Origin: Candidatus Magasanikiibacteriota bacterium
GTDB taxonomy: Bacteria; Patescibacteriota; Patescibacteriia; Magasanikbacterales; UBA922
Assembly: GCA_003482855.1 (NCBI GenBank)
Contig: DMXO01000004.1
Span: 58,224-122,223, forward strand
Length of the DNA: 64,000 nt
Direction: 5' to 3'
Program-made: the position numbers and the translations under genes
The notes under the pieces: model-generated
The model's database searches: none
Told to the model about the DNA's origin: nothing
Seen by the model: the letters and a program-made list of their open reading frames with translations, nothing else
Shown: positions 23,577 to 58,750 of the stretch, one piece after another
Position numbering within the stretch: position 1 is the stretch's first letter
Layout of the letters: each line of letters begins with the position of its first letter

Positions 23577-23928
23577 GTCGTTCTCCTTGGTTTTGGCACC
23601 ATGCTTCCATTTCGTGCATGATGCGATTCCATTCCTCTTCGTTTCCTGAGCGGTGGATGTACTGGTAGTTGGGAGTATCTTCGACAATTTCTATTTTTTT
23701 CCGTATGTTCTCCCTTCTTTCTCGAGGTCGTTTGTCGTCCACAGAAGGCCAACATCGGTTGAACCATGTAGCGAATACCACTTCGCCGTCCTGTTTGAGG
23801 ACAACGATGTCGTCGCCGTGTCCATAAAAGAGTACATTGACCTCAGTGGTCGGATCCTCTTTGATCAGACTAGCTACGGTTTGCCATGTCTTATTCAAGC
23901 TTGGCAGATCCCAGATGCTTTTCTTCAT
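23569..23928 (-). CDS. Hypothetical 119-aa protein, translationally coupled to the rSAM-SPASM gene
   Basis: SD AAGAGG 6 nt upstream of ATG 23928 (MKKSIWDL...); stop overlaps rSAM start (ATGACTGA); intermediate GC. Confidence 0.55.
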   Translation of the reverse strand: MKKSIWDLPSLNKTWQTVASLIKEDPTTEVNVLFYGHGDDIVVLKQDGEVVFATWFNRCWPSVDDKRPRERRENIRKKIEIVEDTPNYQYIHRSGNEEEWNRIMHEMEAWCQNQGERHD

Positions 23929-40233: not shown

Positions 40234-43200
40234 ATGGCACGTGATTCACTACACACAATGAACTTCGATGCACTCCGGTTGCGGGTTGCATCACCAGAGA
40301 CCATACGCAAGTGGTCATACGGAGAAGTATATAAACCTGAGACGATTAACTATCGTACTCAAAAACCTGAAAAAGGTGGCTTGTTTGCTGAAGAAATTTT
40401 TGGGCCAACCAAAGATTGGGAATGTTATTGTGGCAAATACAAAAAGATTAGATATAAAGGTATTGTCTGTGATAAGTGCGGTGTGGAAGTAACACATTCG
40501 CTTGTTCGTCGTGAACGCATGGGCCATATTGAGCTTGCAACACCAGTATCTCATATTTGGTTTTTGCGTACTATTCCTTCTCGTGTTGGTCTTGTGCTCG
40601 ATTTGTCTATACAAGCACTTGAAAAAGTAATTTATTTTGCATCTTTTATCATCACGCATGTAAATGAAGAAGAACTCAGGATAACTCATGACGCTCTCAA
40701 AAAAGAGTATAAATCAAAGAAAAAACAAATAGAAAATGAATTCAACCAAAAAGTGGCTCAAGCAGCAAAAGGAGACATTGCAGCATGTGAGAAGGAACGT
40801 GATAGAAAATATGAAGCATTGGAAGAAGATTTCAAACAGGCAGATGTAGAGCTCAAAGAAATTGCCATGCTCAATATTATTTCAGAGGCTCATTATCAAG
40901 AATTGTCATTGCGTTATGGCCATCTGTTTGAAGCAAGTATTGGAGCGGAAGCTATCCGTGGTTTGCTTGAGCGATTGAACTTAAGCGAAACAGTAGAGCG
41001 TCTAGAAAAAGAAATCAAAAAGAGTAAAGGAGCAAAGCGTGAACGTCTTTTACGTCGCGTGAAGCTACTCAAGAGTCTTGAAAAAAATGGTTTGCGTCCA
41101 GAGTGGATGATTATGACCAATATTCCTGTTATTCCACCAGATTTGCGTCCTATGGTTGCTCTCGATGGTGGACGATTTGCTACATCTGATTTGAATGACC
41201 TGTATCGCCGTGTGATTAATAGAAATAATCGTTTGAGACGTTTGCAAGAATTGAATGCCCCAGAAGTTATTTGTCGAAATGAAAAGCGCATGTTGCAAGA
41301 GGCAGTAGATGCTCTCATAGACAACAACGCACGTGCCACAAAGACGGTGCGCGCTTCCACTGGACAAAAACGTCAGCTTCGATCACTTGCCGATATTCTC
41401 AAAGGTAAACAAGGTCGTTTCCGACAAAATTTGCTTGGTAAACGTGTCGACTATTCTGGTCGTTCAGTTATCGTTGTCGGACCAAATTTGAAAATAAATG
41501 AATGTGGTTTGCCAAAAACTATTGCCCTCGAACTCTTCAAGCCATTTATCATGTCTGAAATTATCAAACGCGAACTTGCCCACAATGTGCGTAGTGCTTC
41601 TCGATTTATCGAAAGCAATGCACCTGAAGTATGGGATATACTTGAAGCATTGACCAAAAAGACTCGTGTACTTCTCAATCGTGCGCCAACATTGCATCGT
41701 CTTGGTATACAAGCATTTCGTCCAATACTTGTTGAAGGTAAGGCAATTAGACTTCATCCGCTTGTATGTCCTGCTTTCAATGCTGACTTCGACGGAGATC
41801 AAATGGCTGTACACTTGCCACTGTCTGAACAAGCAAAATGGGAAGCTGAAAATCTCATGGCTTCTGAAAAGAATTTGCTCAAGCCAGCTACCGGTAGCCC
41901 TGTGATTACGCCAGCTCAAGATATTGCTCTTGGTTGTTATTATATGACTAAATACAAGGAGTCTGATACGGCTGAGGTCAAGAAATATTTTGCTAATATC
42001 ACTGAAGCAAAATATGCGTACAAGACCCGTTTCATTACACTTAAGGAACGTATCAAAGTGAGATTTTCAGATTTATCTAAATTTGAAGAAGGACAAAGTG
42101 CTATTGTAGAAACATCCATTGGCCGTATATTTTTTAATGAAATTTTGCCAAATAAGTTGGTGTATTTTAATCAGGTGATTACCAAGAAAGATTTGAGTAA
42201 TATAATTCAGTCACTTCTTGAAATTTATGGACAGGAAGTTACTGCACACCATCTCGATAAGATAAAGAGTCTTGGATACAAATATGTAACTAAATCTGGA
42301 TATTCACTTGGTAAAGATGATTTCCCTTCTCTCGATATGAAAGCAGAAGTGCTTGCTGCTGCAGATACCCAAGTACAATTGGTTCAAGAACAATATGGCG
42401 AAGGGTTGCTGACTGATTCAGAGCGTCACAGTAAAATACTTGAGATATGGGCTGAAGCAAAAGATAATTTGCTCGCACATAGTAAAGATGTACTTGATAA
42501 AGACAAATCAGTATTTGCAATGATTGACTCTGGAGCTCGTGGTTCATGGGGTCAGCTCGGTCAGGTGATTGCCATGAAGGGCCTCGTGGCTTCTCCAAGT
42601 GGAGACATTATCGAACTTCCGGTGAAAGGTAATTTTAAAGAAGGTTTTGATGTACTTGAGTTCTTTATTTCAAGTCATGGTACACGTAAAGGTTTGTCTG
42701 ACACGGCTCTTCGTACTGCTAATGCAGGTTATTTGACTCGTCGTCTTGTTGATGTAGCTCAAGAAGTAGTAGTCAAAGAAGAAGATTGCGGAGATACTGT
42801 AGGTGAGCTGTTTACGAGAGAACAATCAGAACAAATGGGTGAAAAATTATCAGAACGTGTGCTTGGTCGTTTTGTCCTTGCAGATGTGAAGGCTGGCAAA
42901 AAGACGATTGTAAAAATGGGTGAAGTAGTGGCTGAAGAAGCGGCACGTATTATAGAAAAAGATAAAATTGACAATATTCATGTACGTTCAGTCTTGCAAT
43001 GCAATTTGCCAAAAGGCGTGTGTTCAAAATGTTATGGATATGATTTGGGCAACAGGCAAGTCGTGAGGGTGGGCACCGCAGTAGGTACAATAGCCGCACA
43101 GTCTATTGGTGAACCTGGTACTCAGCTCACTATGCGTACGTTCCACCTTGGAGGTGTCGCAGGTGGCGATATTACTCAAGGTTTACCTCGTGTAGAAGAA

Positions 43201-44118
43201 TTGTTTGAAGCGCGTAATCCAAAAAGAAAAGCAGTATTGTCTGAAGTAGATGGTGTCGTCGAGATTGAAGATGCTGATGGCAAGGTTATCACAAGTCCTA
43301 CTGGTCGCAAAATATTTGAAGGACGACGTGGACAAAAAATTATCAAAGTATATCATGAGGGTATAGAAGAAGTAGTGTTTGATGTAGAAGAGACTGATGA
43401 TGTGAAAGTAGAAGATGGGCAGAAAGTAAAGAAAGGTGATAAGCTCATCGTGAGAGGTGGTTCTGGCGAAGATATCAAAGCTGGTGATCCGGGTACTATC
43501 CGTCGTGATGGAGAAAAACTTATATTGGTTTATGACGGCAAGACGACCAAAGAATATGTCATCCCTATGGGATATAAACTCTGGGTCAAACATGGTGACA
43601 CGGTGCAAAAAGGTGACCAGCTTACCGAAGGCGCTGTTGATCTTCAAGAATTGTTTGAACTCAAAGGTCAGGATGCTGTCAAGCGATATGTTCTCATTGA
43701 GATTCAGGAAATTTATGCGTCTCAAGGTCAACGTTTGAATGATAAACATATTGAGATCGTTATCAAACAAATGTTCTCTCGTGTCTTTGTTGAAGATCCT
43801 GGTGATACAGATTTGTTGCCCGGTGAGGTAGTAGAGCGCGCACAGCTTATTATCTCCAATAGGCAAGCAGAGAAAGAGGGTAAGAAGAAAGCAAAAGTTC
43901 GTGATATGCTCATGGGTATTAGCAAAGTGTCTCTCACGACACAAAGTTTCTTGTCATCTGCTTCATTTCAAGAAACATCCCGTGTGCTCGTAAATGCAGC
44001 TATCACGGGTAAGATGGATTATCTCGAGGGATTGAAAGAGAATGTCATTATCGGTCGTCTCATACCTGCTGGTACCGGTATATATGGTACTGGCGTACGT
44101 GTACCTGAAGAAGAATAA
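40234..44118 (+). CDS. rpoC: DNA-directed RNA polymerase subunit beta'
   Basis: 1294 aa, zinc-binding CxxC...CxxC N-terminus, NADFDGD catalytic motif. Confidence 0.97.
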   Translation: MARDSLHTMNFDALRLRVASPETIRKWSYGEVYKPETINYRTQKPEKGGLFAEEIFGPTKDWECYCGKYKKIRYKGIVCDKCGVEVTHSLVRRERMGHIELATPVSHIWFLRTIPSRVGLVLDLSIQALEKVIYFASFIITHVNEEELRITHDALKKEYKSKKKQIENEFNQKVAQAAKGDIAACEKERDRKYEALEEDFKQADVELKEIAMLNIISEAHYQELSLRYGHLFEASIGAEAIRGLLERLNLSETVERLEKEIKKSKGAKRERLLRRVKLLKSLEKNGLRPEWMIMTNIPVIPPDLRPMVALDGGRFATSDLNDLYRRVINRNNRLRRLQELNAPEVICRNEKRMLQEAVDALIDNNARATKTVRASTGQKRQLRSLADILKGKQGRFRQNLLGKRVDYSGRSVIVVGPNLKINECGLPKTIALELFKPFIMSEIIKRELAHNVRSASRFIESNAPEVWDILEALTKKTRVLLNRAPTLHRLGIQAFRPILVEGKAIRLHPLVCPAFNADFDGDQMAVHLPLSEQAKWEAENLMASEKNLLKPATGSPVITPAQDIALGCYYMTKYKESDTAEVKKYFANITEAKYAYKTRFITLKERIKVRFSDLSKFEEGQSAIVETSIGRIFFNEILPNKLVYFNQVITKKDLSNIIQSLLEIYGQEVTAHHLDKIKSLGYKYVTKSGYSLGKDDFPSLDMKAEVLAAADTQVQLVQEQYGEGLLTDSERHSKILEIWAEAKDNLLAHSKDVLDKDKSVFAMIDSGARGSWGQLGQVIAMKGLVASPSGDIIELPVKGNFKEGFDVLEFFISSHGTRKGLSDTALRTANAGYLTRRLVDVAQEVVVKEEDCGDTVGELFTREQSEQMGEKLSERVLGRFVLADVKAGKKTIVKMGEVVAEEAARIIEKDKIDNIHVRSVLQCNLPKGVCSKCYGYDLGNRQVVRVGTAVGTIAAQSIGEPGTQLTMRTFHLGGVAGGDITQGLPRVEELFEARNPKRKAVLSEVDGVVEIEDADGKVITSPTGRKIFEGRRGQKIIKVYHEGIEEVVFDVEETDDVKVEDGQKVKKGDKLIVRGGSGEDIKAGDPGTIRRDGEKLILVYDGKTTKEYVIPMGYKLWVKHGDTVQKGDQLTEGAVDLQELFELKGQDAVKRYVLIEIQEIYASQGQRLNDKHIEIVIKQMFSRVFVEDPGDTDLLPGEVVERAQLIISNRQAEKEGKKKAKVRDMLMGISKVSLTTQSFLSSASFQETSRVLVNAAITGKMDYLEGLKENVIIGRLIPAGTGIYGTGVRVPEEE

Positions 44119-44140
44119 TTTTGTAGAAATTTAAAAAACT

Positions 44141-44166
44141 CCCCGTAAAAGCGGGGAGTTTTTTGA
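44141..44166. terminator. Bidirectional terminator AAAAACTCCCCG-taaaa-GCGGGGAGTTTTTT
   Basis: Perfect stem with flanking A/T runs between rpoC end and convergent gene. Confidence 0.8.
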
Positions 44167-44178
44167 TTAAAATGGAAT

Positions 44179-45660
44179 TTAGTGCTTGGAGACTAGAAAA
44201 GGTTTCATTAGGTTTTTTATTTTTATGAAGTTTTGGTTTGCGTTGACCTCGACTATATCACCAGTTTGAAAAAATTTTGTCGCTGAACCAGTACCCACGA
44301 TACAAGGCACTCCGAGTTCACGCGACAGTATAGCAGCATGACACATTATTCCACCTTGATCTGTCACTATTGCCCCAGCCAACCTCATAGCCGGTACATA
44401 TTCAGGGCTAGTCATGGTTGTAATCAACACCTCACCCTTTTTAATGTTTTTAATTTCATTAGCTTCGCGAATGATCCTTACTCTGCCAGTATAAGAACCA
44501 GCTGATGCTGTCACTCCCAAAAGCAAAGATTTTTTATTTTTTATTTCTTTTTTGTGCCCTACTAGGATTTTGTTTGCTTTTACACCTAAGAACATTTCTA
44601 CTTTATTTTTATTAAAAACAAATAAGCTATTTTTGCTTCTATCTTTCAAAACATCTTCTCTCGTTAAGACATTGTTTAATAAGGCTGATTTCAATTCTTC
44701 TGGCAAATGATATTGTATCAATTCGCGCCTAGTATTTAATCTTTTGGAAATTTCTTCAAGCAAACCAATGATATGATAATGTACCAAAGTGAATTTTTCT
44801 TTTTTATAATCCTGTAAGTAAGATGCCAGACGCAAGTTATTAAATAAATTTTTATGTGTCCTGTCAACTTTATGTTTTTTTTCTAAATTTGTTTGCTGTT
44901 TTCGCAATTCCTTAGAATATTTTTTGCTAGTTAGTAAACGATTTTTCATGTCACCTTGTTTTAGAATACGATCTAAAATCACAAAAAAATATTTTTCATC
45001 CCACAAGTCTAAGCCATAATCATAAGGCACCCAAGAATATTTTTTAGTGTGTATTTTTATAGCTTCCGTCTGGTCCTTAATTTTTTTATTTTTTATTTTT
45101 AAAGCAATATTTAACAAATCATCCTCTTCTTCTTTGGCAAAAGATTTTTTTTGTGGTGCTGAAAGAATTGAATAGGTGGCTGTTAATTCTTCAGGATTAA
45201 AAATTTTTTTGCTTAAATATTTTTTTAAATAACTGCCTAATGATTCTTCCAAACCTAAAACCACCGGTTCACTCCACGGGTAAGCAGCCGTGTATAATGT
45301 AAAATACTTAGAAAACACCTGCCAAAGTTCCTGATTGGTCTTTTTACTTAGATTGGTTTTATAAATACTAAAAGCAAATTTATTTAGGTGTAACATTTTT
45401 TGATTATATTTTTTGATTATATTATCCAAAAAATTTTTATCTTTTTTAACTAATAACAAAGTTTGTTTGTTTACTTTATTTACTCTCGCTTCCGATGCGT
45501 ACCAATACATTATGCCATCTACATATTGTACTAGGGTAATACCAAAAGACAAGCCGAGTGAATCTTTCATGTGTTCACTATAAGATTGAGCAATTATATA
45601 AGCATTAGGTATTAAATGAATCCCTTCTTTTTGCTGCATGAAAATATAATCCTTATTCAT
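44179..45660 (-). CDS. Protein with C-terminal PEP-utilising-enzyme mobile (phosphohistidine swivel) domain; N-terminal region unassigned
   Basis: C-terminal GGIMCHAAILSRELGVPCIVGTG matches the PpsA/PPDK/EI mobile-domain His motif; 493 aa. Confidence 0.65.
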   Translation of the reverse strand: MNKDYIFMQQKEGIHLIPNAYIIAQSYSEHMKDSLGLSFGITLVQYVDGIMYWYASEARVNKVNKQTLLLVKKDKNFLDNIIKKYNQKMLHLNKFAFSIYKTNLSKKTNQELWQVFSKYFTLYTAAYPWSEPVVLGLEESLGSYLKKYLSKKIFNPEELTATYSILSAPQKKSFAKEEEDDLLNIALKIKNKKIKDQTEAIKIHTKKYSWVPYDYGLDLWDEKYFFVILDRILKQGDMKNRLLTSKKYSKELRKQQTNLEKKHKVDRTHKNLFNNLRLASYLQDYKKEKFTLVHYHIIGLLEEISKRLNTRRELIQYHLPEELKSALLNNVLTREDVLKDRSKNSLFVFNKNKVEMFLGVKANKILVGHKKEIKNKKSLLLGVTASAGSYTGRVRIIREANEIKNIKKGEVLITTMTSPEYVPAMRLAGAIVTDQGGIMCHAAILSRELGVPCIVGTGSATKFFQTGDIVEVNANQNFIKIKNLMKPFLVSKH

Positions 45661-45665
45661 AAAAT

Positions 45666-47132
45666 CTAATTATTGTTTTGTGGAGTTAAAATTCTAACTG
45701 TGCCATGATTGGCTCGCACGGCCACAATATCACCGGTTTTAATTTGGGTAGTGGCAGTATGAGTATTTATTATACACGGCTTACCAGCCAAGCGAGCGTT
45801 AATAGCTGCATGACAGAGCATGCCTCCAGCATTGGTCACTATAGCTCCGGCTTTTTTTATAATTTCTATCATAGTATCGTCAGTCATTTCTGCAATTAAA
45901 ATTTCTCCAGTTTGAAACTTTTTTATATCTTCTTTTTTTTCTATCACCCGAGCAACTCCCTGAGCATAACCCTGAGCTCCAACTTTTCCCGCTACTGAAT
46001 GCCCCAGTTCACTTTGCTGTAAAATTTCCTGCAATTCTTCATAAACTTTTTTAACCTCTATTCCTTCAATTATTTTATAATCTTTGCCTAATATAGAAAG
46101 CAATAAACCCTGATTAAATCGATTTTTCAAAGTCTGTTTTTTAATTAGACCATGCAACAAATTATCCAATTCTTCAAAAGTTAAAAAATATAAAAAATCT
46201 ATTTCTATTCCAGTAATTTTTTTTAGTCGTTTAAATACTTTATTCCACAATTCTTGAATTTGCAAATTCACTGTTTGTCGATACTCACGCCATTGTCCCA
46301 ATTCTTTAAAAAATTCCAAAGGATTGGCGCTTAATTTATATTTTTTCAAAATCGTTTTAATAAACTGGTGATGTCTCTTGGCGCGCGCCATTGTCTCTTT
46401 GGTACGCTGGCTTTTGTCCAAAATATTTTCACTAGTCAAAAGTTCGGCAATTTCTGCTTGAGTAAAATTATAAATCTTACCAATTCGCGCCACTTCTTTA
46501 TTATCAAATCCCAAATCAAAGCTATCAATAAAAATTGCCGTGGACCAAAATTTTTTCAAAGTATTTTGCCACTGCTCTAAAAAATTCAACAATTCATTAA
46601 CACCCCATTCTAACGGAAAATCAGTTGCGTATTCCTGGCAAAAGGCTTCTACCTTTTTGCCATAATCAAAAAGACTTTCTTTTAACTCAAAATGTCGCCG
46701 ACTTAATTCTCCATATTCTTTATAAACTGCCTCTGCCATTTCTGCAAATGAGGAGGTAGTATGCCAAAAAACTTCACACACGCCATTTTTAAAATAAACA
46801 TCGCAAGTGCCCAAACCCTCATCAAAAAACTTTGGATTAGGATGAATAATGCCTGCAATTCTAGGCCAAAAAATTATAGGACTTAAATTCAGTACTTGGC
46901 GATACATTTTGGGAACACTTCCTTCATTTTGTTTGGATTCAAATTCTACTATATCAGTAATATCAAGGCCATAACGTTCACAGAGCCGGTCTAAGGTAGA
47001 AAACCACACCCCATCGGCTTTGCCATGAAAAAGTGCTGTAACAGTATTGCGATTTATACCAGTTTCTTGGCTAATTTCAGAGATATTTTTACCCAGTTTT
47101 TTCGCTACAGTATGTATTTTTAACTTAATCAT
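45666..47132 (-). CDS. Paralogous PEP-utilising mobile-domain protein with N-terminal HTH (XRE-like)
   Basis: N-terminal HTH KKLGKNISEISQETGINRNTVTALFHGK; C-terminal GGMLCHAAINARLAGKPCIINTH swivel-domain motif; start taken at MIKLKIH. Confidence 0.65.
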   Translation of the reverse strand: MIKLKIHTVAKKLGKNISEISQETGINRNTVTALFHGKADGVWFSTLDRLCERYGLDITDIVEFESKQNEGSVPKMYRQVLNLSPIIFWPRIAGIIHPNPKFFDEGLGTCDVYFKNGVCEVFWHTTSSFAEMAEAVYKEYGELSRRHFELKESLFDYGKKVEAFCQEYATDFPLEWGVNELLNFLEQWQNTLKKFWSTAIFIDSFDLGFDNKEVARIGKIYNFTQAEIAELLTSENILDKSQRTKETMARAKRHHQFIKTILKKYKLSANPLEFFKELGQWREYRQTVNLQIQELWNKVFKRLKKITGIEIDFLYFLTFEELDNLLHGLIKKQTLKNRFNQGLLLSILGKDYKIIEGIEVKKVYEELQEILQQSELGHSVAGKVGAQGYAQGVARVIEKKEDIKKFQTGEILIAEMTDDTMIEIIKKAGAIVTNAGGMLCHAAINARLAGKPCIINTHTATTQIKTGDIVAVRANHGTVRILTPQNNN

Positions 47133-47225
47133 AATGTAAGTATTTATAAGCATATTATAGTATATTTATATAATTTTGTCAATATTTCACAGTTTTTGTA
47201 ATGATTTCATTACAAAAATGTACAT

Positions 47226-47243
47226 AATACCATTGAAAATTAG
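47226..47243. promoter_or_regulatory. Perfect palindrome TGTAATGA-tt-TCATTACA (operator-like) next to promoter TTGAAA-N16-TATTAT and SD AAAGGAGGAGG of the B12-rSAM gene
   Basis: Read directly; 8-bp arms, 2-nt spacer; the whole promoter region is AT-rich while the CDS is GC-rich. Confidence 0.5.
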
Positions 47244-47320
47244 TCATCTTTTGATATTATATGCAGTTCCCTACACAGTGTCTGGGGGAAGATCTTTACA
47301 AAAGGAAAAAGGAGGAGGCC

Positions 47321-48955
47321 ATGAAGGCTTTCATCGTTGCGTTGATCTCGGCGTTTTGGCAGCTGTTCGGGTCGCATGGGGTTCGGGTTGCCTTGATCCA
47401 GCCGGTGCCACGGCTCAGGTCAAAATCTTTGGGAATTTTCAAGTCCCCGGAGAGTATTCAGGCCCTCGCGGGCCAGCTCGAGGCATTCGGATACAACGTG
47501 CGGATGTACCACTCATCCACAGGCTGGGGCATGATGATCAGGCTCCTGTTATTCAACCCTAACGTGGTCGGGGTCAGTACTATGACCCCAAATTTCCTCG
47601 AGGGGAAGCGGATCGCTCAGCTCCTGAAGCTGTGGCGACCTCGTCTTCCCATTGTGCTCGGAGGCTGGCATGCCTCGGGCGCGATCCAGGCTCACCTCCA
47701 TGGGCAGGAGAGCGAGAGTCTTGGGGAGATTCTCAACCCGAACTCGCCATTCGACTACGTCGTGGCGGGCGAAGGGGAAGAGATCTTCCCCAGGCTCATC
47801 GCGAGCCTGCTCGCGGGGAAGGAGGTCGAAGCCGAACCCGGCGTTAGCATCTTCCGCAATGGGGAGATCCAAGTCGGCGGCTCAACCCCGAGGATTACCA
47901 ACCTCAGGGAGATTGCTGAGCCCTCGTGGAGCGGACTCAAGATTAAGCGCTACCGAGACAAACGTTCCGGAGCGCTCGATCTGAGCGTCCACTTTAACCG
48001 ATCGTGTCGGTTTCAGTGTGCGTTCTGCTCAACCCCCACGGTGTACGGCCATGGGGTGAGGGTGACGCCTGCCCTGCAGGCGTTCGCCTACTTGAAAAGT
48101 GTGGTGGTGACCCACCGCCCACAGGTCATTACTTTCACCGACGAGGACTTCTTCGCCCACATGTCGTGGGTAGAGGAGTTGGTCAGCCTCCTCGAAACCG
48201 ACAACCTCGCAAAGCAGTTTGGAGTGTCGTTTGATACTTTTGCGAGCATCAACGACATCCACCGGCTCCGCAAGGCCGGCAAGGGATATTTCCTCGATCG
48301 TATGCGGGCGGTCGGGTTCGGAAGCTTCACGATCGGGGTTGAGAGTTTCAATCCCAACATCCTCCTTGCTTACAACAAGGAGATGATGATCCTCCCGACG
48401 ATGAGCCGGGAAGAGCGTGGGACCTACACGGGACTCGACAACGATCAGAAGAAGCGCGCACTCGTCACTCATTACCGCAAGCGGACCCAGGAAGCGATCA
48501 ACTTCGCTTCCGAACACGGCCTGCTGGTAGTCGGCGACTACATACTCGGCAACCTCGGCGAAAGCGTGGAGGACGTGCGAGCGGGTTTCGAGATTTTCAA
48601 AAACCTCGAAAACCTGCTTCTCGCATACATCCCTGTCTTCACACCGTTCCCGGGCACCAAGATCTGGGGCGACGCCTACTCGTCGGGTCTGCTCCCGCGC
48701 AACCCTGACGGAAACATTGACTGGATGCGCTTCAATGCATCAGCCGGGGCTCTCAACCTCGGTTACGACATCGGAGCGCTCCGCAATGAGCTCGAGATTG
48801 AGTTCTACACGTCCAGCCGCTACCGGCGAGACATGCTGAAAAACTTGGAGAGCACCCCTGCTCTCCGTGGCCTGTTCGTGGGCCGCTTCAGCTATCTCGG
48901 CCGACTGTTTCCCGGCGACGTCCGCGTCCGGGAAATGATCCAGCTACTGGGCTGA
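47321..48955 (+). CDS. B12-binding-domain radical SAM enzyme (class B rSAM, methyltransferase-like), GC-rich
   Basis: N-terminal cobalamin-binding Rossmann-like region (VVGVSTMTP...IVLGGWHAS), radical SAM CxxxCxxC (CRFQCAFC); start at ATG 47321 after SD. Confidence 0.75.
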   Translation: MKAFIVALISAFWQLFGSHGVRVALIQPVPRLRSKSLGIFKSPESIQALAGQLEAFGYNVRMYHSSTGWGMMIRLLLFNPNVVGVSTMTPNFLEGKRIAQLLKLWRPRLPIVLGGWHASGAIQAHLHGQESESLGEILNPNSPFDYVVAGEGEEIFPRLIASLLAGKEVEAEPGVSIFRNGEIQVGGSTPRITNLREIAEPSWSGLKIKRYRDKRSGALDLSVHFNRSCRFQCAFCSTPTVYGHGVRVTPALQAFAYLKSVVVTHRPQVITFTDEDFFAHMSWVEELVSLLETDNLAKQFGVSFDTFASINDIHRLRKAGKGYFLDRMRAVGFGSFTIGVESFNPNILLAYNKEMMILPTMSREERGTYTGLDNDQKKRALVTHYRKRTQEAINFASEHGLLVVGDYILGNLGESVEDVRAGFEIFKNLENLLLAYIPVFTPFPGTKIWGDAYSSGLLPRNPDGNIDWMRFNASAGALNLGYDIGALRNELEIEFYTSSRYRRDMLKNLESTPALRGLFVGRFSYLGRLFPGDVRVREMIQLLG

Positions 48956-52616: not shown

Positions 52617-55600
52617 ATGATAAAAAAACATCTGAAAGAAATGAAACTATACTATATAGTTTCATTAGCTTCGTCTTCTTTGCTCGTGGGCATATACACT
52701 GTGCTCATGTTTGGCTATATTTCAGTGCACGCGGGGACAAGTCAAGATGGGTCATTTACTATCACTCCAGTCACCTCGACCTATGACAATCTCATAGGAG
52801 CTGATAACACGCGATGGACATTTACTGCGACGACAACAGCAGATTTGGTCCGGGGTGATGTGGTGCAATTTCAATTTCCAACGGTCATGCAGGCAGAACC
52901 GTTTGAAGTAAGTAGCGCGTCAGTTGTTTCTTCAGACAATATTACCCTTTATGAAAGCCTTGCCAATTCACAAAACACAGAGTTATTGACAAATGGAAAT
53001 TTTGAATCAACAACAACAACATACACGCTGTCTAGCTGGTCAGTCACCACTATGGGACCGCCTCCTGTTTCTGCTGGCGCCTCTACTGGCAGGTCAGTTG
53101 ATCCACGTGGGGGTTCGTATGCTTTTGAATTTACAGTTCCTACCAATCCAGCTGGCACTGGCTATGGATTAATGCAATCATATTCTGGCCTGACAGGCGG
53201 AGGTTCGTATACAGGATCATTGTATGCAAAAAGTGCAGATTCTGGTTCTGTGTGTATATCATATGTCAGCGATGATTTTTCAGAGATATATAACTTTACT
53301 TTGTCTTCCTGGGTTTCTTTTGCAGGCTTAAATGGAGATACCATGTCATGTAGTGGCGTACTCAGTGCGACGTATGCGGCAGTAACATTTAGTGCAGTTA
53401 CTGCGTCGTCAAGCGGCCAGATGGTTGCCGTAGTTGCTGGTAGTGGAACTAGTGGCGGAGAACAGATTATTATTGATGATTTTTCACTTGTGCTCGATGG
53501 CGGGGGCGATGCAGCACAGAATGGCGGGCTTGAAACGTGGACAGGCCAGGATGTACCTACTAGTTGGACAGATGATTCAGAAGACAATTCAAGCCGCAAT
53601 ATATCTACAACTACGGTGCATGGTGGACAGTATTCCTTGGTATTACAAACAGGCCAGACTGGTACTAAAGCGATAACATATCAAGTGCTCACTGGCTTGA
53701 CTCCAGGGGCAACCATTGATGCAAGTGTATATGAATATGATACCAATGGACAAGGTTATTTCATCGTACTCAATAATCAAGTTGAATCACAGACACAAGC
53801 ATGGAATTTCGTCACGAACCAATGGGATGCTAATACAAGCACTATGGGTAATTTGTGGGGCGGTGGTAATTATAGTTTGGCTTTGAGTTCGCGAAATACA
53901 TGGGCGCAGTTTAGCGAAAGTATGACAGCGCCAGCTAATGGCATTATGTACATATATCTCGTAACTGGCACAACAAATGGTTCTGTAGTATATATTGATG
54001 ATGCATCTTTTTTGGTAGGTAGTCAGAGTGGTAGTGATGTTGCGGGAGTTGGTAATAATTATATAAATGACGTACCTATTGTATATGGTATTGTGAGTAG
54101 CACTATTGCTGCGGGAACGCAGATCAGTGTGACTGTAGGTGGCATAGATAACGCGGCTGGGAATTTACAAAATATGCAAGATTTAGAGTTTCAGATTCTT
54201 GCGGGCACACCGAGCAATAGTGAACAGCCATGGAGTACATTGAGTAGTGAAAAATTCAATAAGACAGCGACTCATTCTCTGGTACGTGCAGGGACAGCGA
54301 TTGTTTCAGATTCAAATTCATCTATTATGTCGAGCTCATATGAGACAAGCGCGACGAATGTGGATTATACATTTGGGTTTACCGCATCGAGCAGTCTCGC
54401 AGTAGGGGACAAAATTGTGGTGAATTTTCCCGCAGAATATAGTATGAATGGTCTTACCGTAAGTACGACTGCAGAAATAAATAGCAAGGGGACTACAATT
54501 GGAAGTTTCGCTACATCTACAAGTTTTGGACGTAATCAGATCATCTTGACGCTTGCGGCCACGTCGACAGATCCAGGCGATGCAATCACGGTGACTATTG
54601 GCGATCTCACCAATCCCAGCACCGCAGATGTATATAGGCCATTCTATATATATACTGCAAAAGCAAATGGCGGTCTTGTGGATGGTTCATATTATGGGTT
54701 TGAACAGAGTGATTATGCGACAGTGTCACCAGTCGATACTGTTCATATCGGAGGTACCAATGATATTGTTATAACCGTGCAAAAAACGACGACCACAACT
54801 ACGCGCATATTGGAAGGCGCAGAGCTGGCGCAGGTGCGTGTGGGTGTAGGGTGTCCAGACAAAGGATTTTTTGTGGGAAGCAGATTTTTGGATAGCAATG
54901 CTCAGGTGACATTTAATAATTTACTTGATTGCAATTACATGATAGGCGTTGAACCTTTGGATGGTACTGGTGACGCGTCATTTTTCCAAAATTATTTACC
55001 CCCCTCTTTCAAACAAGTGCCTGCGTTTGGAGATCAATCTGTGTCTACCACGCTTACGTTTGGCACGCCAGATGGGTTCATAGTAGGTGCGCTTACCAAT
55101 GCGGTTGTAGGACAAGAGATAGAGGTACGGGCCTACACAACAGAATATGAATCATGGGGTGAAGTATTTACTGCTACAAATTATGTAACACCTGGTGTAA
55201 ACGGAAGTAATGTTGGCTATTTTAAGATTCCTGTAAAAAGTGGTTCAAATTGGAAATTGAGTGTAGAGAGCCAGTCTCTTGATGGGGGCACATCAAAATT
55301 TTGGCCACCAACCATACCATCGGTATATGTTGCGCAGGCAGGCACAGTCAATATAGGATCCCATGCATATATAGAGGCAAATAAAGATTTGGTAGTGACG
55401 CTCGCAAAAGTTGGCGGTGGATCTGTGCAAGATGCGTGTGTTGGTGTGAAGTCAAATTCAGCAAGTATGTTTATGCCACCGCGTGATGTTGTGTGTCAGC
55501 CAAATGGTACTGGCGGGAACACAGGAAAGTATGTATTTAAGGTTCCCCAAGGTTCAGTGCTCATCAATGTCATGCGTCCGGGTAAAGGAATGCCGGAAGA

Positions 55601-58600
55601 ATATCCTATAGCTGTCGGGGCAAGCGGTGCGACAAAGACAATTTATTTATCAGCTCCAGACACATATATTTCAGTTTCTGTGGTAGATGGAGAGGGCAAT
55701 GCAATATCTGGCGCTCCTATATTTGCTCAAGGGTCTAATGGTTTTTCTCAAGACGTGACCGGCTCTGGTGGTACCACAACGCTCTTCATTGCTGCAGGTA
55801 CTTATCGCCTCGAAGGATTTGCGCCAGGTCTTGGACCGCTTACGTCATGGACAGAAAATTCGGGCACGGCAAATGATGGTACAGTTGTAGTTTCGTCTGG
55901 TGTAAATCCAAGTGTTACCGCTACAGTCAATACAGCAAACTTTAGACAAGTGACAGGTACTGTGACCGCAGGTGGATCTGGTATCGGGGGCGTAAAGATC
56001 GGAGCTCGTGGCATCAATGGTACAAGTGGTGGTAATGGCACAGAGACAAATTCCAATGGCACGTATATGTTGTATTTACCAACAGCAGGTTATTATGAAG
56101 TTGGCGGTTGGTCAGATGAGACAGGCGGCCTGCCTCCACAAAATGTCAATGTGACGAATGGTAATGCAACAGCAAATTGGTCACTCAATGGACAAGGCAC
56201 TCTTCGATTTGAAATTTCAAACGCATCCAACATTACCCCATTGTTTGGAGGAGCTTTTGATCCATCTACTGGTCGTGGCAATGGTACAGAATCATGGACA
56301 ACAAGCGGTACGACCAAGATAGCACAATTTAATTTGTCTGCTGGCTCATATGAGGCGCATGTTGGCTCTCCTATGATAGGTCCTCTTGTTGAGGGAGAGA
56401 CAGTGACTGTGACTCAAGGTGAGACAGTTATTGTTACGGCGGATGTAAGTTCTCTAGGCGAATTGGTCACATTGAGTGGTACAGTGACTGATGGCACTAA
56501 TCCATTGTTAGGGGTCACTGTGTGGGCGTCACGTATCAATGGCCCAGGACATTATGAAACAGAAACAGATGATAACGGAGATTATAGTCTCAATGTGCCC
56601 GATCTTCGTACGTATATGGTTGGGGCTCGTGAGCTCGGCTATATATCTGCAAGCGGTGATGTAGAAGTTTCTGTAGATGGCAATACAACCGAGGATTTTA
56701 CTATGACTGAGGCAGCTTCCACTATCACTGGACAAGTGACTTCAGGTGGCGTTTCAGTATCGTGTGTATGGATAGACGCACGTAAGATAGTTAGTGGTTT
56801 TGATGCATGGGCAGGGGCTCCGACAGACAATGGAGGTAATTATGAGTTGAGTGTGGATAATGGCACATGGATATTGTATGCCAATGGACCAGATGGATAT
56901 AGAAAACAGGTGGGACAGACAACCGTGACTGATGAAAGTCGAACAGTAAATATCAGCCTTAGTGATTTTAATGGGTGTGTATTTAAACAGCCGGATTTAC
57001 ACGCAATTAGTGATGTAAGTGGCGGACAGGTAGCTACAGAAAAAGTTACCTTAGATATACCTGCAAATGCTTTGGGCACAAGCCAGAGTACGGTAAGTGT
57101 CTCTGTGTCAGATGCAGATTTGATAGTGGGTTCTTCAGGAGCTACCCCGCTCGCAACTTCCACAATTACACTCGAAGCTACTGATAGTAATGGACAATCA
57201 GTAAGTTCTTTTAATCAATGTATTAATATTACTCTGTCATACGATGAAACGAGTTTGCCTATAGGATTTGATGAATCAGAATTGCAGTTTGGATATTGGG
57301 ATAGTACTGAAGGACGATGGAAGACAGAAGCAGCTACAGTCAACACAACTCTCGACACTATGACTGCATGTGTAAATCACTTTACTGATTTCGGACCAGT
57401 GTTACCAGGTGTGCCAGACGCACCATCTAGTGTATCTGCCACAGCTGCATCGGCCAGTCAAATCAATCTTACTTGGGATGCAGAAGAGAGTGCTGATTCA
57501 TACATCATTTATCGCAACACAACAGGTAACACGACATTTACCGCAGGTGACCAAATTGGTACTACGTCAGATACGAGCTATAGCGATACTGCGCTTAGTG
57601 CACAAACAACATATTATTATGAAGTCGCAGGAGTCAATGAAAATGGCGAAGGATTCAATTCTGATACTGCCAATGCAACTACTCAAGCGGCCGCTGTAAG
57701 CAATAGTCCTGGTAGTTCGGGGAGCGGGTCTACTCCAGCCAATCCTCCTCAGCTTCCTGCCGGTGAGAAAGGCATTGTGATAAATAATGGTGATGTGCTT
57801 ACTTCATCTCGCAGCGTTACACTCACATTGCATGCGCTCAATGCGACACAAATGGCGATTTCAAATTCGTCAGATTTTACCGGTACATCATTTATTGCAT
57901 ACACCGAAAGTTATGTCTGGTCAGTCACCCATGGCGATGGAGAAAAGATGGTGTATGTGAAATTTAGAGCCGCTGACGGAAGCACTCTCGTTGTGCAGGA
58001 TATGATTGAACTTACAGGTCAGGGATTTGACCAATATTCTGCCAAGGCAAATTGTCCAATTGATACAGAAAAAGCATACAAATATGTAGGTAACTCTGGA
58101 GTTTACTTTATTACGAGCGATTGTACCAAACGTCCATTCAAGGATGAGGCAAAATTTTTCTCTTATTTTAATTCTTGGTCACATGTCAAAATGATATCCA
58201 AAGATACATTGGATGATATACCTCTTGACACGCTCGGCTTCATGCCATGGGGTCCGCTTCATGATCCCAAATATGGCGCAATTGTGAAGACAGTCACGAG
58301 CCCAAATGTGTATTTACTCTTGGGCAATCAGCGCCATCTCATTGTGAGTGATACTATTTTCACAGCACTTGGGTATGCATGGAACTGGATTGAGGATGTA
58401 GCTTCGTCTCTTATAGACAAGTACAGTGACGCAGACCCAATTGGTAGTTCACAGACACATCCAAATTATGTCTTGATCAAATATCCTAATTCACCACATG
58501 TTTATAGATTGGAACCAGATCCTGTAGATGCCACAAAACAGATTAAACGTAAAATTAAAAATGAGCGTGTTTTTGAACAAAACAAGTTTAGGTGGGATCG

Positions 58601-58655
58601 AGTAGTGGAGGTGGATGCTGAAGAAATATATTCAGATGGCGAATCACTAGAATAA
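52617..58655 (+). CDS. Giant (2012-aa) secreted/cell-surface protein with Ig-like/carbohydrate-binding beta domains and a fibronectin type III domain near the C-terminus
   Basis: N-terminal signal/TM anchor; Thr/Ser/Gly-rich beta-repeat composition; FN3 signature (QINLTWDAEESADSYIIYRN...YYYEVAGVNENGEG). Confidence 0.7.
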   Translation: MIKKHLKEMKLYYIVSLASSSLLVGIYTVLMFGYISVHAGTSQDGSFTITPVTSTYDNLIGADNTRWTFTATTTADLVRGDVVQFQFPTVMQAEPFEVSSASVVSSDNITLYESLANSQNTELLTNGNFESTTTTYTLSSWSVTTMGPPPVSAGASTGRSVDPRGGSYAFEFTVPTNPAGTGYGLMQSYSGLTGGGSYTGSLYAKSADSGSVCISYVSDDFSEIYNFTLSSWVSFAGLNGDTMSCSGVLSATYAAVTFSAVTASSSGQMVAVVAGSGTSGGEQIIIDDFSLVLDGGGDAAQNGGLETWTGQDVPTSWTDDSEDNSSRNISTTTVHGGQYSLVLQTGQTGTKAITYQVLTGLTPGATIDASVYEYDTNGQGYFIVLNNQVESQTQAWNFVTNQWDANTSTMGNLWGGGNYSLALSSRNTWAQFSESMTAPANGIMYIYLVTGTTNGSVVYIDDASFLVGSQSGSDVAGVGNNYINDVPIVYGIVSSTIAAGTQISVTVGGIDNAAGNLQNMQDLEFQILAGTPSNSEQPWSTLSSEKFNKTATHSLVRAGTAIVSDSNSSIMSSSYETSATNVDYTFGFTASSSLAVGDKIVVNFPAEYSMNGLTVSTTAEINSKGTTIGSFATSTSFGRNQIILTLAATSTDPGDAITVTIGDLTNPSTADVYRPFYIYTAKANGGLVDGSYYGFEQSDYATVSPVDTVHIGGTNDIVITVQKTTTTTTRILEGAELAQVRVGVGCPDKGFFVGSRFLDSNAQVTFNNLLDCNYMIGVEPLDGTGDASFFQNYLPPSFKQVPAFGDQSVSTTLTFGTPDGFIVGALTNAVVGQEIEVRAYTTEYESWGEVFTATNYVTPGVNGSNVGYFKIPVKSGSNWKLSVESQSLDGGTSKFWPPTIPSVYVAQAGTVNIGSHAYIEANKDLVVTLAKVGGGSVQDACVGVKSNSASMFMPPRDVVCQPNGTGGNTGKYVFKVPQGSVLINVMRPGKGMPEEYPIAVGASGATKTIYLSAPDTYISVSVVDGEGNAISGAPIFAQGSNGFSQDVTGSGGTTTLFIAAGTYRLEGFAPGLGPLTSWTENSGTANDGTVVVSSGVNPSVTATVNTANFRQVTGTVTAGGSGIGGVKIGARGINGTSGGNGTETNSNGTYMLYLPTAGYYEVGGWSDETGGLPPQNVNVTNGNATANWSLNGQGTLRFEISNASNITPLFGGAFDPSTGRGNGTESWTTSGTTKIAQFNLSAGSYEAHVGSPMIGPLVEGETVTVTQGETVIVTADVSSLGELVTLSGTVTDGTNPLLGVTVWASRINGPGHYETETDDNGDYSLNVPDLRTYMVGARELGYISASGDVEVSVDGNTTEDFTMTEAASTITGQVTSGGVSVSCVWIDARKIVSGFDAWAGAPTDNGGNYELSVDNGTWILYANGPDGYRKQVGQTTVTDESRTVNISLSDFNGCVFKQPDLHAISDVSGGQVATEKVTLDIPANALGTSQSTVSVSVSDADLIVGSSGATPLATSTITLEATDSNGQSVSSFNQCINITLSYDETSLPIGFDESELQFGYWDSTEGRWKTEAATVNTTLDTMTACVNHFTDFGPVLPGVPDAPSSVSATAASASQINLTWDAEESADSYIIYRNTTGNTTFTAGDQIGTTSDTSYSDTALSAQTTYYYEVAGVNENGEGFNSDTANATTQAAAVSNSPGSSGSGSTPANPPQLPAGEKGIVINNGDVLTSSRSVTLTLHALNATQMAISNSSDFTGTSFIAYTESYVWSVTHGDGEKMVYVKFRAADGSTLVVQDMIELTGQGFDQYSAKANCPIDTEKAYKYVGNSGVYFITSDCTKRPFKDEAKFFSYFNSWSHVKMISKDTLDDIPLDTLGFMPWGPLHDPKYGAIVKTVTSPNVYLLLGNQRHLIVSDTIFTALGYAWNWIEDVASSLIDKYSDADPIGSSQTHPNYVLIKYPNSPHVYRLEPDPVDATKQIKRKIKNERVFEQNKFRWDRVVEVDAEEIYSDGESLE

Positions 58656-58671
58656 AAATATATATAAAAAA

Positions 58672-58700
58672 AAGGCCCGGCACAGAACCGGGTCTTTTTA
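58672..58700 (+). terminator. Terminator GCCCGG-cacagaa-CCGGGTCTTTTT
   Basis: Read directly after the stop of the 2012-aa gene. Confidence 0.6.
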
Positions 58701-58750
58701 TCCACTTTTTGACTCAACTGAGTCATTTTTTTGTGGTATACTATACATAC

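What the first reader, a model, noticed from the sequence alone, without database searches (positions are those of the whole stretch)
44179..47153. Tandem paralogues with a C-terminal PEP-utilising-enzyme mobile (phosphohistidine) domain, one fused to an N-terminal HTH
Two ~495-aa proteins end in the GGxxCHAAIxxRExGxPCI(V/I) swivel domain of PEP synthase/PPDK/Enzyme I. Their N-terminal ~370 residues show no obvious ATP-grasp or PEP-binding TIM-barrel signatures, and one starts with an XRE-type HTH. A phosphotransfer swivel domain fused to a DNA-binding domain would be an unusual signalling or antibiotic-resistance (rifampin-phosphotransferase-like) architecture. They lie directly beside rpoBC, the rifamycin target.
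Basis: partly seen in the sequence, partly recalled or inferred. Interest (0 to 1): 0.6.

Follow-up and report, generated by a model that had tools for sequence, protein, structure and literature searches.

The report
Split dikinase carrier genes, one HTH-fused
Two adjacent genes in a Magasanikbacteria-like (CPR) genome encode the substrate-binding and phosphate-carrying half of a rifampin-phosphotransferase-type kinase without its ATP-binding half; they belong to a very large, apparently undescribed family that forms arrays of up to 13 genes in ultra-small bacteria and archaea, and one copy carries a DNA-binding domain.

Summary
Two co-directional ORFs (493 aa; 495 aa, more likely 488 aa from M8) end in a PEP-utilizers swivel domain with the catalytic His, and one starts with an XRE-type HTH. 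"Paralogues" needs qualifying: BLAST aligns only the last ~100 aa, but profiles show both N-terminal regions belong to one fast-evolving domain family. That domain matches the rifampin-binding (acceptor) domain of RPH by fold and by sequence profile, including the catalytic acid/Lys helix. Neither protein has an ATP-grasp, and none is encoded in the 64-kb window. This is the HpeH/CreH/PpsA-type half of two-component small-molecule dikinases. In related loci, stand-alone ATP-grasp genes are the commonest neighbour (27 of 79 loci), some proteins fuse an ATP-grasp to 2-4 units, and in one Magasanikbacteria contig the ATP-grasp lies ~70 kb from the array. The family has at least 4,631 clusters, almost all from CPR bacteria and DPANN archaea. 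The B-A pair is a self-contained cassette with a consensus promoter, conserved palindrome and terminator, found in three different genomic contexts. The rpoBC adjacency is therefore coincidental and rifamycin resistance is unsupported. Substrates are unknown. I rate it a new variant of a known kind.

The parts
44179..45660 (-). Gene A: 493-aa carrier/acceptor protein (RPH-type acceptor domain plus His swivel, no ATP-grasp)
   Evidence: ORF. AF2 pLDDT 87, pTM 0.83. Foldseek top hits are RPH 5fbu/5hv1/5fbt/5fbs, E 3e-15 to 2e-14, 550-580 aligned columns. About 19 close homologues, all 471-508 aa with PF00391 only.
44545..45660 (-). A residues 1-372: acceptor (substrate-binding) domain, homologous to the RIF-binding domain of RPH. 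It contains the family-invariant D284 and K287, which align with RPH Glu667 and Lys670.
   Evidence: The N-terminal-only profile finds 4,631 clusters. The family profile aligns with RPH 448-866, and the motif 'ylqDeRk' aligns with RPH 'GYREYPK'. RPH residue roles are from PMC4844700.
44218..44521 (-). A residues ~380-481: phosphohistidine swivel domain. The catalytic His441 codon is at 44338-44340. The motif is T433-x-x-GG-x-x-C-H441, with no regulatory Thr.
   Evidence: PF00391 E 7e-23; PEP synthase 8a8e E 2e-28; motif position.
45666..47132 (-). Gene B: 488-aa (from M8) HTH plus acceptor domain plus swivel protein. The ORF as listed extends to 47153.
   Evidence: AF2 pLDDT 70. Foldseek top hits are RPH, E 1e-9.
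46938..47111 (-). B residues 15-72 (495-aa numbering): XRE/Cro-C1-type helix-turn-helix
   Evidence: PF13443 HTH_26, E 3e-10, 40.6 bits against a cut-off of 22. Four short helices in the AF2 model.
45999..46928 (-). B residues 76-385: a diverged member of the same acceptor domain. W-R289-E290-Y-R292-Q keeps the Arg-Glu-Tyr of RPH's catalytic helix.
   Evidence: Family HMM built without its own orthologues: 83 bits, E 1e-27, shuffle maximum 7.5 bits. Alignment. Direct phmmer links to other members down to E 5e-7, and 1e-26 to a Woesearchaeota protein.
45690..45989 (-). B residues 389-488: swivel domain. The His448 codon is at 45810-45812.
   Evidence: PF00391 E 7.6e-19; 43% identical to A's swivel; motif position.
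47154..47182 (-). Sigma-70-type promoter TTGACA-17-TATAAT (12 of 12) for the B-A operon
   Evidence: Both hexamers are invariant in four orthologous upstream regions. This is a consensus match only; function is inferred.
47193..47218 (.). Perfect 12+12 palindrome TTTTTGTAATGA-aa-TCATTACAAAAA just upstream of the -35: a candidate operator for B's HTH
   Evidence: The arms TTTTGTAAT/ATTACAAAA are conserved and the spacer varies across genomes. There is one exact site in the window against 0.05 expected. Binding is inferred.
44133..44164 (.). Hairpin A6-CTCCCCG-TAAAAG-CGGGGAG-T6 between convergent rpoC and A: a likely bidirectional terminator
   Evidence: Read directly from the sequence. The pattern scanner did not report it.

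Best explanation
A and B are the carrier/acceptor components of a split, two-component ATP-dependent small-molecule dikinase of the RPH/HpeHI/CreHI/PpsAB type.

Proposed mechanism. A separately encoded stand-alone ATP-grasp protein (~324 aa, PPDK_N) uses ATP to load the beta-phosphate onto the swivel His (A His441, B His448). The swivel then returns to the protein's own N-terminal acceptor domain. There the phosphate passes to a hydroxyl group on a bound small molecule, helped by the conserved acid/Lys(Arg) helix. The overall reaction would be ATP + substrate -> AMP + Pi + substrate-phosphate.

The acceptor domains are the fast-evolving part, so A and B should act on different substrates. In related genomes one conserved ATP-grasp apparently serves up to about a dozen such modules.

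B also carries an XRE-type HTH. It probably binds the conserved palindrome next to its own promoter and autoregulates the two-gene B-A cassette in response to substrate or to its own phosphorylation state, in the manner of a trigger enzyme.

Shown: domain identities, homology to RPH's acceptor domain, retention of the His and the catalytic-helix residues, linkage to the ATP-grasp by neighbourhood and by fusion in relatives, and the cassette structure.

Inferred: that this genome has the ATP-grasp, that the acceptor is a small molecule, the identity of the substrates, DNA binding, and autoregulation.

For: Sequence: the 110-member family profile aligns to RPH 448-866 at E 9e-36. RPH Glu667 and Lys670 align with the invariant D284 and K287 of A, and B keeps R-E-Y. 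Their catalytic role is documented in PMC4844700. The swivel motif T-x-x-GG-x-x-x-H is present in both, as described for HpeH/CreH/PpsA/RPH (PMC12167813).

Precedent: HpeH (swivel plus RIF-binding-like domain) and HpeI (ATP-grasp) are separate proteins, and both are required.

Partner: PPDK_N is the top recurrent neighbour. It forms a cluster in 15 loci (Pfam E 8e-79) and is found by HMM in 27 of 79 loci, co-directional with the arrays. Rosetta-stone fusions exist: P0112 is PPDK_N plus 2 units, and P0023 is 4 units plus PPDK_N. Stand-alone PPDK_N proteins are 65-90% identical across Magasanikbacteria. One lies on the same contig as a six-gene array but ~70 kb away.

Diversification: N-terminal regions have a median identity of 16% and swivels 48% among 20 paralogues, and all keep the His.

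Regulation: consensus promoter, a palindrome conserved across four genomes, and independent HTH fusions elsewhere in the family.
Confidence: 0.65

Rival explanations
1. The swivel His~P is an end point or a relay and not a catalytic intermediate. A and B would be signalling or regulatory proteins, like PTS Enzyme I/HPr or PRD-type regulators, or would phosphorylate a macromolecule. B would be a phosphorylation-controlled transcription factor with no enzymatic turnover.
For: B and other family members carry HTH domains of different types. TrmB- and HTH_10-type regulators are recurrent neighbours. The swivel fold is shared with Enzyme I.
Against: The acceptor-site acid/Lys(Arg) helix is conserved family-wide, including in B. 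Every characterised protein with this acceptor domain that I found (RPH, HpeH, CreH, PpsA and the prodiginine enzyme HapC) acts on small molecules. HAD phosphatase neighbours and a HAD fusion fit small phospho-metabolites. Most members have no DNA-binding domain.
Confidence: 0.13
2. A and B work without any ATP-grasp. They would act as transphosphorylases that move phosphate from one phosphorylated metabolite to another via the swivel His, or they would be charged by another donor such as PEP through the cell's own PPDK/PEP synthase.
For: No ATP-grasp lies in the window or near the closest orthologous pairs. HpeH alone catalysed phosphotransfer from 4-phosphoacetophenone to acetovanillone.
Against: There is strong neighbourhood and fusion linkage to PPDK_N across the family. 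A highly conserved stand-alone PPDK_N is widespread in Magasanikbacteria and can be encoded far from the carriers.
Confidence: 0.1
3. Rifamycin (or another RNA-polymerase-targeting antibiotic) phosphotransferase, placed beside its target genes rpoBC.
For: RPH is the closest solved structure. The genes abut rpoC in this window.
Against: The adjacency is not conserved: the same cassette lies in two other contexts. The RPH equivalog models score 72 and 51 bits against cut-offs of 999 and 1700. The ATP-grasp is absent. Identity to RPH is ~16%. The RPH region 327-447, which holds part of the rifampin pocket, has no aligned counterpart. A bidirectional terminator separates rpoC from A.
Confidence: 0.03
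4. Ordinary split or degraded PEP synthase/PPDK of central carbon metabolism, possibly pseudogene fragments.
For: NCBI names relatives 'PEP-utilizing enzyme'. The best NCBIfam hits by E-value are PEP synthase models.
Against: Those hits cover only the ~110-aa swivel and score 129 bits against a cut-off of 598. There is no PEP/pyruvate TIM barrel and no PPDK_N. The regulatory Thr of GGxTSH is replaced by M or L (PMC12167813). The full-length architecture is conserved in thousands of clusters, so these are not fragments.
Confidence: 0.02

Closest known systems
HpeH (with HpeI), CreH (with CreI), PpsA (with PpsB): two-component small-molecule dikinases of aromatic catabolism (PMC12167813)
   Same: The split layout is the same: one protein carries an RPH-type acceptor domain plus a C-terminal His swivel, and a separate ~40-kDa ATP-grasp protein does the ATP chemistry. 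The T/S-x-x-GG-x-x-x-H motif is the same and lacks the regulatory Thr.
   Different: HpeH is ~71 kDa, whereas these proteins are ~57 kDa. NCBIfam PRK08296-type models (~600 aa, which I take from memory, not from a test, to be the HpeH-like group) match only the swivel and fall far below their cut-offs. In the known systems the two genes are adjacent and paired 1:1. Here the window has no ATP-grasp, and in relatives one ATP-grasp accompanies up to 8-13 carrier genes. The hosts are CPR/DPANN organisms, not aromatic degraders. Some members carry HTH domains.
Rifampin phosphotransferase RPH (Listeria, PDB 5FBS/5FBT/5FBU/5HV1)
   Same: It is the closest solved structure. The acceptor-domain fold, the swivel, the carrier His and the Glu667/Lys670-equivalent residues are shared.
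   Different: RPH is one 867-aa chain with an N-terminal ATP-grasp. Identity is ~16%. Arg666 is not conserved in A. The rifampin-pocket region 327-447 is not alignable. The equivalog score is far below its cut-off.
PEP synthase / pyruvate phosphate dikinase / PTS Enzyme I
   Same: They share a homologous phosphohistidine swivel domain. PEP synthase has the highest swivel identity (E 2e-28).
   Different: A and B have no ATP-grasp, no PEP/pyruvate-binding TIM barrel and no HPr-binding subdomain. The swivel is C-terminal and not central, and the regulatory Thr is absent.
Trigger enzymes with a fused DNA-binding domain (BirA, NadR, PutA); this comparison comes from general knowledge
   Same: B has an N-terminal DNA-binding domain fused to an apparently intact enzyme module, with a palindrome at its own promoter.
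   Different: There is no sequence relationship, and DNA binding and autoregulation by B are untested.

Membership tests
Rifamycin-inactivating phosphotransferase (RPH) | Single chain with an N-terminal ATP-grasp (PPDK_N) domain | tested here: not met
   No PF01326 in A or B. Both proteins start directly with the acceptor domain or the HTH.
Rifamycin-inactivating phosphotransferase (RPH) | Scores above the NCBIfam equivalog cut-off (NF041857 999 bits; NF000283 1700 bits) | tested here: not met
   A scores 72.3 and 51.1 bits; B scores 45.5 and 27.8 bits.
Rifamycin-inactivating phosphotransferase (RPH) | Carrier His plus acceptor-site Arg666/Glu667/Lys670 | tested here: inconclusive
   The His is present in both. 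In A, D284 and K287 align with Glu667 and Lys670, but Q283 aligns with Arg666. B has R289-E290, with Q293 at the Lys position and R292 adjacent.
Rifamycin-inactivating phosphotransferase (RPH) | Rifampin-binding pocket residues and rifampin phosphorylation | not testable with these tools
   RPH 327-447 has no aligned counterpart in the profile alignment. Activity needs an assay.
Two-component small-molecule dikinase, carrier/acceptor component (HpeH/CreH/PpsA type) | RPH-type acceptor domain followed by a C-terminal His swivel, without an ATP-grasp | tested here: met
Two-component small-molecule dikinase, carrier/acceptor component (HpeH/CreH/PpsA type) | T/S-x-x-GG-x-x-x-H swivel motif without the regulatory Thr | tested here: met
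   A has T433-DQ-GG-IMC-H441 and B has T-NA-GG-MLC-H448. The motif definition is from PMC12167813.
Two-component small-molecule dikinase, carrier/acceptor component (HpeH/CreH/PpsA type) | A cognate stand-alone ATP-grasp component encoded alongside | tested here: not met
   None in the window in six frames or within 10 kb in L001-L012. The feature is met in 27 of 79 related loci and by fusions. In one Magasanikbacteria contig the partner lies ~70 kb away.
Two-component small-molecule dikinase, carrier/acceptor component (HpeH/CreH/PpsA type) | Close sequence kinship (HpeH, CreH and PpsA are ~45% identical to each other; ~71 kDa) | not tested
   No HpeH, CreH or PpsA sequence was available to compare. 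Indirectly, ~600-aa PRK08296 models match only the swivel at 100 bits or less against cut-offs of 578 or more, and A and B are ~57 kDa.
PEP synthase / PPDK | PPDK_N ATP-grasp plus central swivel plus C-terminal PEP/pyruvate TIM barrel; GGxT(S/C)H with a regulatory Thr | tested here: not met
   Only PF00391 was found. TIGR01418 scores 118.7 against 739.75, and NF005057 scores 128.6 against 598. M or L occupies the Thr position.
XRE/Cro-C1 family HTH regulator (B only) | HTH domain above the Pfam gathering score | tested here: met
   PF13443 scores 40.6 bits against a cut-off of 22.
XRE/Cro-C1 family HTH regulator (B only) | Sequence-specific binding to a palindromic operator at a regulated promoter | not testable with these tools
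   A candidate site exists and is conserved. Binding needs EMSA or footprinting.
Known anti-phage defence systems (PADLOC) | Match to any defence-system protein model | tested here: not met
   No significant hit for A, B or the ATP-grasp.

The most novel reading that the evidence does not exclude
CPR bacteria and DPANN archaea may share a combinatorial dikinase system. A single, highly conserved ATP-grasp 'charger' would phosphorylate the swivel His of many interchangeable carrier/acceptor proteins, up to 13 per locus and roughly 1-2% of a ~1-Mb genome. The hypervariable acceptor domains would give a broad repertoire of small-molecule phosphorylation, used to trap, activate or detoxify host-derived compounds. 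HTH-fused members such as B would act as substrate- or phosphorylation-sensing transcription factors controlling mobile two-gene cassettes.
Probability: 0.35. Interest if true: 0.8.

Novelty: new variant of a known kind. Interest (0 to 1): 0.62.

Why it matters
CPR and DPANN organisms have minimal genomes, yet they devote many genes to this family, which suggests it matters for their host-dependent lifestyle. No function is assigned to it: sources call the members 'PEP-utilizing enzyme' or 'PEP synthase', which would mislead metabolic reconstructions by implying a gluconeogenic step that is not there. Recognising the proteins as carrier/acceptor halves of RPH-type dikinases gives a concrete, testable biochemistry. 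It also points to a one-charger, many-acceptors arrangement not reported for the characterised 1:1 systems, and it offers a large natural library of small-molecule kinases. The HTH-fused form would be a new way of coupling a swivel phosphotransfer module to transcription. The analysis also removes a tempting but unsupported antibiotic-resistance reading.

Tried and rejected
- Rifamycin resistance linked to rpoBC: rejected, because the adjacency is not conserved and the RPH equivalog scores are far below cut-off.
- Ordinary PEP synthase or PPDK: rejected.
- Further swivel or ATP-grasp genes in the window: none found by tblastn, a motif scan, Pfam on 23 large ORFs, or a PPDK_N HMM on the six-frame translation.
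- Defence-system membership: no PADLOC hit.
- Structured RNAs near the locus: Rfam finds only one tRNA in the window.
- N-terminal-only hhalign of the A family against the 3-sequence B family: only 50% probability. A broader HMM was needed.
- Word-index homologue search: it badly underestimated family size, finding 19 and 2 hits against 4,631 clusters by exhaustive HMMER.
- AFDB50 fold search: unavailable.
- Calibrating the B (~91% nt) versus A (~63% nt) asymmetry with other shared genes: failed, because the window and L001 share nothing else.
- Literature searches for PEP-utilizing/swivel/dikinase with CPR, DPANN, Patescibacteria or Magasanikbacteria: no description of this family found. The library lacks most subscription journals, so prior description cannot be excluded.
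- The VadK paper: gave nothing usable.
Full report
**1. The observation**

The window carries two co-directional minus-strand ORFs. A is at 44179-45660 (493 aa) and B is at 45666-47153 (495 aa), and they are 5 nt apart. They are convergent with rpoC (40234-44118) and divergent from a B12-binding radical-SAM gene (47261-48955).

Pfam finds the PEP-utilizers mobile domain at the C-terminus of both proteins (A 406-476, E 7e-23; B 413-484, E 7.6e-19). It also finds a Cro/C1-type HTH_26 at B 15-72 (E 3e-10, above the gathering score). Neither protein has PPDK_N or a PEP-binding TIM barrel. Both keep the carrier histidine, in GGIMCH441 and GGMLCH448.

- **Start of B.** B most probably starts at M8 (47132). 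Its homologues start there. A 12-of-12 sigma-70 consensus promoter ends at 47154, so the upstream ATG overlaps the -10 box. ATGATTAAG is the conserved start in four genomes.
- **"Paralogues".** BLASTP aligns only the last 100 residues of A and B, at 43% identity.

**2. What the N-terminal regions are**

A profile of 110 diverse family members aligns by sequence to RPH residues 448-866 at E 9e-36. That span covers most of RPH's rifampin-binding domain plus the swivel.

RPH's acceptor-site residues Arg666 and Glu667 are essential for rifampin phosphorylation, and Lys670 belongs to the same hydrogen-bond network (PMC4844700). They fall on the family motif 'y-l-q-D-e-R-k':

- A has Q283-D284-Y-K286-K287. 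The acid (Glu667 position) and the Lys (Lys670 position) are invariant in A's subfamily.
- B reads W-R289-E290-Y-R292-Q, which preserves RPH's Arg-Glu-Tyr.

B's middle region (residues 76-385) scores 83 bits (E 1e-27) against a family N-terminal HMM from which its own orthologues were removed. The best of 300 shuffled controls scores 7.5 bits. B's model (pLDDT 70) also hits RPH first, at E 1e-9.

Both proteins are therefore an RPH-type acceptor domain followed by a His swivel, and B has an extra N-terminal HTH. Neither contains the ATP-grasp.

**3. The known kind this corresponds to**

RPH is a three-domain dikinase. Its ATP-grasp loads the beta-phosphate of ATP onto the swivel His, and the swivel carries it about 50 Å to the acceptor domain.

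A two-component version is known. HpeHI, CreHI and phenylphosphate synthase PpsAB split the enzyme into a ~71-kDa protein with the acceptor and swivel domains and a ~40-kDa ATP-grasp protein. Both are required, and the swivel motif is T/S-x-x-GG-x-x-x-H without the regulatory Thr of PEP synthase and PPDK (PMC12167813). A (T433-DQ-GG-IMC-H441) and B (T-NA-GG-MLC-H) fit that motif.

**4. Is there an ATP-grasp partner?**

There is none in the window. I found nothing with tblastn, a motif scan, Pfam on 23 large ORFs, or a PPDK_N HMM run on the six-frame translation. The family context nevertheless points strongly to one.

- **Family size.** Exhaustive HMMER with an N-terminal-only profile finds 4,631 clusters (50% identity) at E<=1e-3 and 579 at E<=1e-30. 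Nearly all are 470-520 aa.
- **Distribution.** The best 79 loci come from CPR/Patescibacteria (Magasanik-, Kerfeld-, Uhr-, Morani-, Nealson-, Taylor-, Lipton- and Saccharibacteria) and from DPANN archaea (Woese-, Micr- and Nanoarchaeota). A few third-party assemblies are titled Gammaproteobacteria or Methanosarcinales, which I could not verify.
- **Arrays.** Those loci hold 320 swivel ORFs. Arrays reach 13 genes in ~21 kb, and 56 of the 79 loci have two or more. A Magasanikbacteria-related contig has 12 in a row.
- **Neighbours.** Clustering the non-family neighbours puts a stand-alone PPDK_N ATP-grasp first: 17 genes in 15 loci, with Pfam E 8e-79. An HMM finds PPDK_N in 27 of 79 loci. It is usually one co-directional gene at an end of the array, and in 8 loci it is fused into long multi-unit ORFs.
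- **Fusions.** P0112 is PPDK_N plus two units. P0023 (2,309 aa) is four units plus PPDK_N. P0120 fuses a unit to a HAD phosphatase.
- **A's own orthologue.** The array headed by A's orthologue in L013 (42% identity) ends in a 328-aa PPDK_N gene.
- **Conservation and distance.** That protein's relatives are abundant and 65-90% identical across Magasanikbacteria MAGs. One lies on the same 94.6-kb contig as a six-gene array but ~70 kb away. Another occurs in the same metagenome as the closest A/B pair.

Absence from 64 kb is therefore weak evidence of absence from the genome.

Among 20 paralogues, the acceptor domains have a median identity of 16% and the swivels 48%, and every copy keeps the His. 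This pattern fits one conserved charger docking many swivels, with the acceptor domains diversifying for different substrates.

**5. The B-A cassette**

A perfect 12+12 palindrome (47193-47218) sits just upstream of the consensus promoter (47182-47154). A strong hairpin flanked by A6 and T6 (44133-44164) separates A from the convergent rpoC.

Every genome with a B-type gene has the same B-A pair, but in three different contexts: rpoC/radical-SAM in the window, pnp/Smr in L001, and pilM/T2SSF in L092-L094. Across these genomes the -35 and -10 hexamers are invariant, and the arms TTTTGTAAT/ATTACAAAA are conserved while the spacer varies. The exact site is unique in the window, against 0.05 expected by chance.

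DNA identity between the window and L001 begins at about 47233, which includes the palindrome. It is 81-97% through the promoter and B, and it drops abruptly to 55-69% at the B/A junction and through A. It ends at A's stop codon.

The pair therefore behaves as a discrete, relocatable two-gene unit with a mosaic history. The rpoBC adjacency is incidental.

HTH fusions of other types recur in the family: P0067 is MerR-like, and P0072 and P0110 are HTH_3. The regulator-enzyme fusion is thus a repeated solution in this family, even though B's own subtype is rare (two other clusters).

**6. Most likely mechanism**

An ATP-grasp protein encoded elsewhere charges His441 or His448. The swivel then delivers the phosphate to a small molecule bound in the N-terminal domain, giving ATP -> AMP + Pi + phospho-product. 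A and B have different specificities. B additionally binds the palindrome and autoregulates the cassette, probably sensing ligand or its own phosphorylation state.

The domain assignments, the conserved catalytic residues, the linkage to PPDK_N and the cassette anatomy are shown. The partner in this genome, the small-molecule nature and identity of the substrates, and DNA binding are inferred. Recurrent HAD, PTA_PTB, hexapeptide-repeat and TrmB/HTH_10 neighbours hint at downstream handling of phospho-metabolites, but they do not identify a pathway.

**7. Rivals**

- **Pure signalling or relay role.** It is disfavoured by the conserved acceptor-site residues and by precedent, but it is not excluded.
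- **ATP-grasp-independent transphosphorylation.** This is possible, because HpeH alone can do it.
- **Rifamycin resistance and ordinary PEP synthase.** Both are rejected.
- **Known defence systems.** No PADLOC hit.

**8. Novelty and verdict**

The chemistry and the split layout are known. Four things go beyond what I could find described:

- the ~490-aa clade;
- its restriction to and expansion in CPR and DPANN lineages;
- the one-ATP-grasp, many-carriers arrangement;
- the HTH-fused members.

This rests on literature searches of open-access papers only, so an earlier description elsewhere cannot be ruled out. I classify the finding as a new variant of a known kind, of moderate-to-high interest.

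Noticed in passing
window 44234-47233 versus L001 8402-11455: Mosaic divergence inside the cassette. The promoter and gene B are 81-97% identical at the DNA level between two genomes, while gene A immediately downstream is only 55-69% identical, with a sharp break at the B/A junction (~45600-45660). This could reflect recombination that swapped the A allele, recent transfer of B, or diversifying selection on A. No other shared gene was available to calibrate the background divergence.
   Followed up: partly
L004/L010 2557-20484; L039; L006 2243-12939: Tandem arrays of 12, 13 and 6 family genes. In L006 the array is interrupted by Bro-N and HD-domain genes and lies beside a TrwB/T4SS coupling-protein-like gene. 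A TrwB-like gene also lies near the short PF00391 genes in L090. A possible link to conjugative or mobile DNA was not explored.
   Followed up: partly
L038 4796-19141: A single ~4,768-aa ORF in a Nanoarchaeota contig appears to concatenate a PPDK_N domain with many carrier/acceptor units. I did not check whether this is a real giant fusion or an assembly or frameshift artefact.
   Followed up: no
L013-L086 (related loci): Besides PPDK_N, recurrent array neighbours are PTA_PTB phosphate acyltransferase-like genes (13 loci), HAD phosphatases (12), hexapeptide-repeat proteins (12), TrmB (10) and HTH_10 (6) regulators, and baeRF family-10 release-factor-like proteins (6). Their roles are unknown.
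   Followed up: partly
window 47261-48955 (+), also 22479-23687 (-): The B12-binding radical-SAM gene divergent from B lies in a stretch of 41-47% GC, against 33% for the 44-46 kb bin that holds A and part of B and ~40% for the surroundings. A second radical-SAM gene lies in another high-GC island (51% at 22-24 kb). Both may be horizontally acquired. Their best NCBIfam hits (RiPP or methyltransferase rSAMs) are far below cut-off.
   Followed up: no
window 52617-58655 (+) and 58622-64000 (+): Two very large ORFs follow each other: one of 2,012 aa with CarboxypepD_reg and fn3 domains, and an open frame of at least 1,793 aa that runs off the window end. These may be giant surface proteins, which from general knowledge are common in CPR bacteria.
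   Followed up: no
window 44133-44164: A clear A6-stem-loop-T6 hairpin between convergent rpoC and gene A was not reported by the terminator pattern scan.
   Followed up: yes
L088 1265-2883: In one Magasanikbacteria contig the stand-alone ATP-grasp gene is preceded by a 65-aa XRE-type HTH gene and a Cupin_2 gene. It lies upstream of mnmA, alaS, infA and an rpsM-rpsK-rpsD-rpoA-rplQ ribosomal-protein cluster, a neighbourhood largely shared with L090.
   Followed up: no
window 12243-12266: A one-mismatch copy of the operator-like pattern (TTTTGTA-N10-aACAAAA) lies inside the pfkB-family kinase ORF (11426-12373). It is probably a chance match in AT-rich DNA.
   Followed up: no
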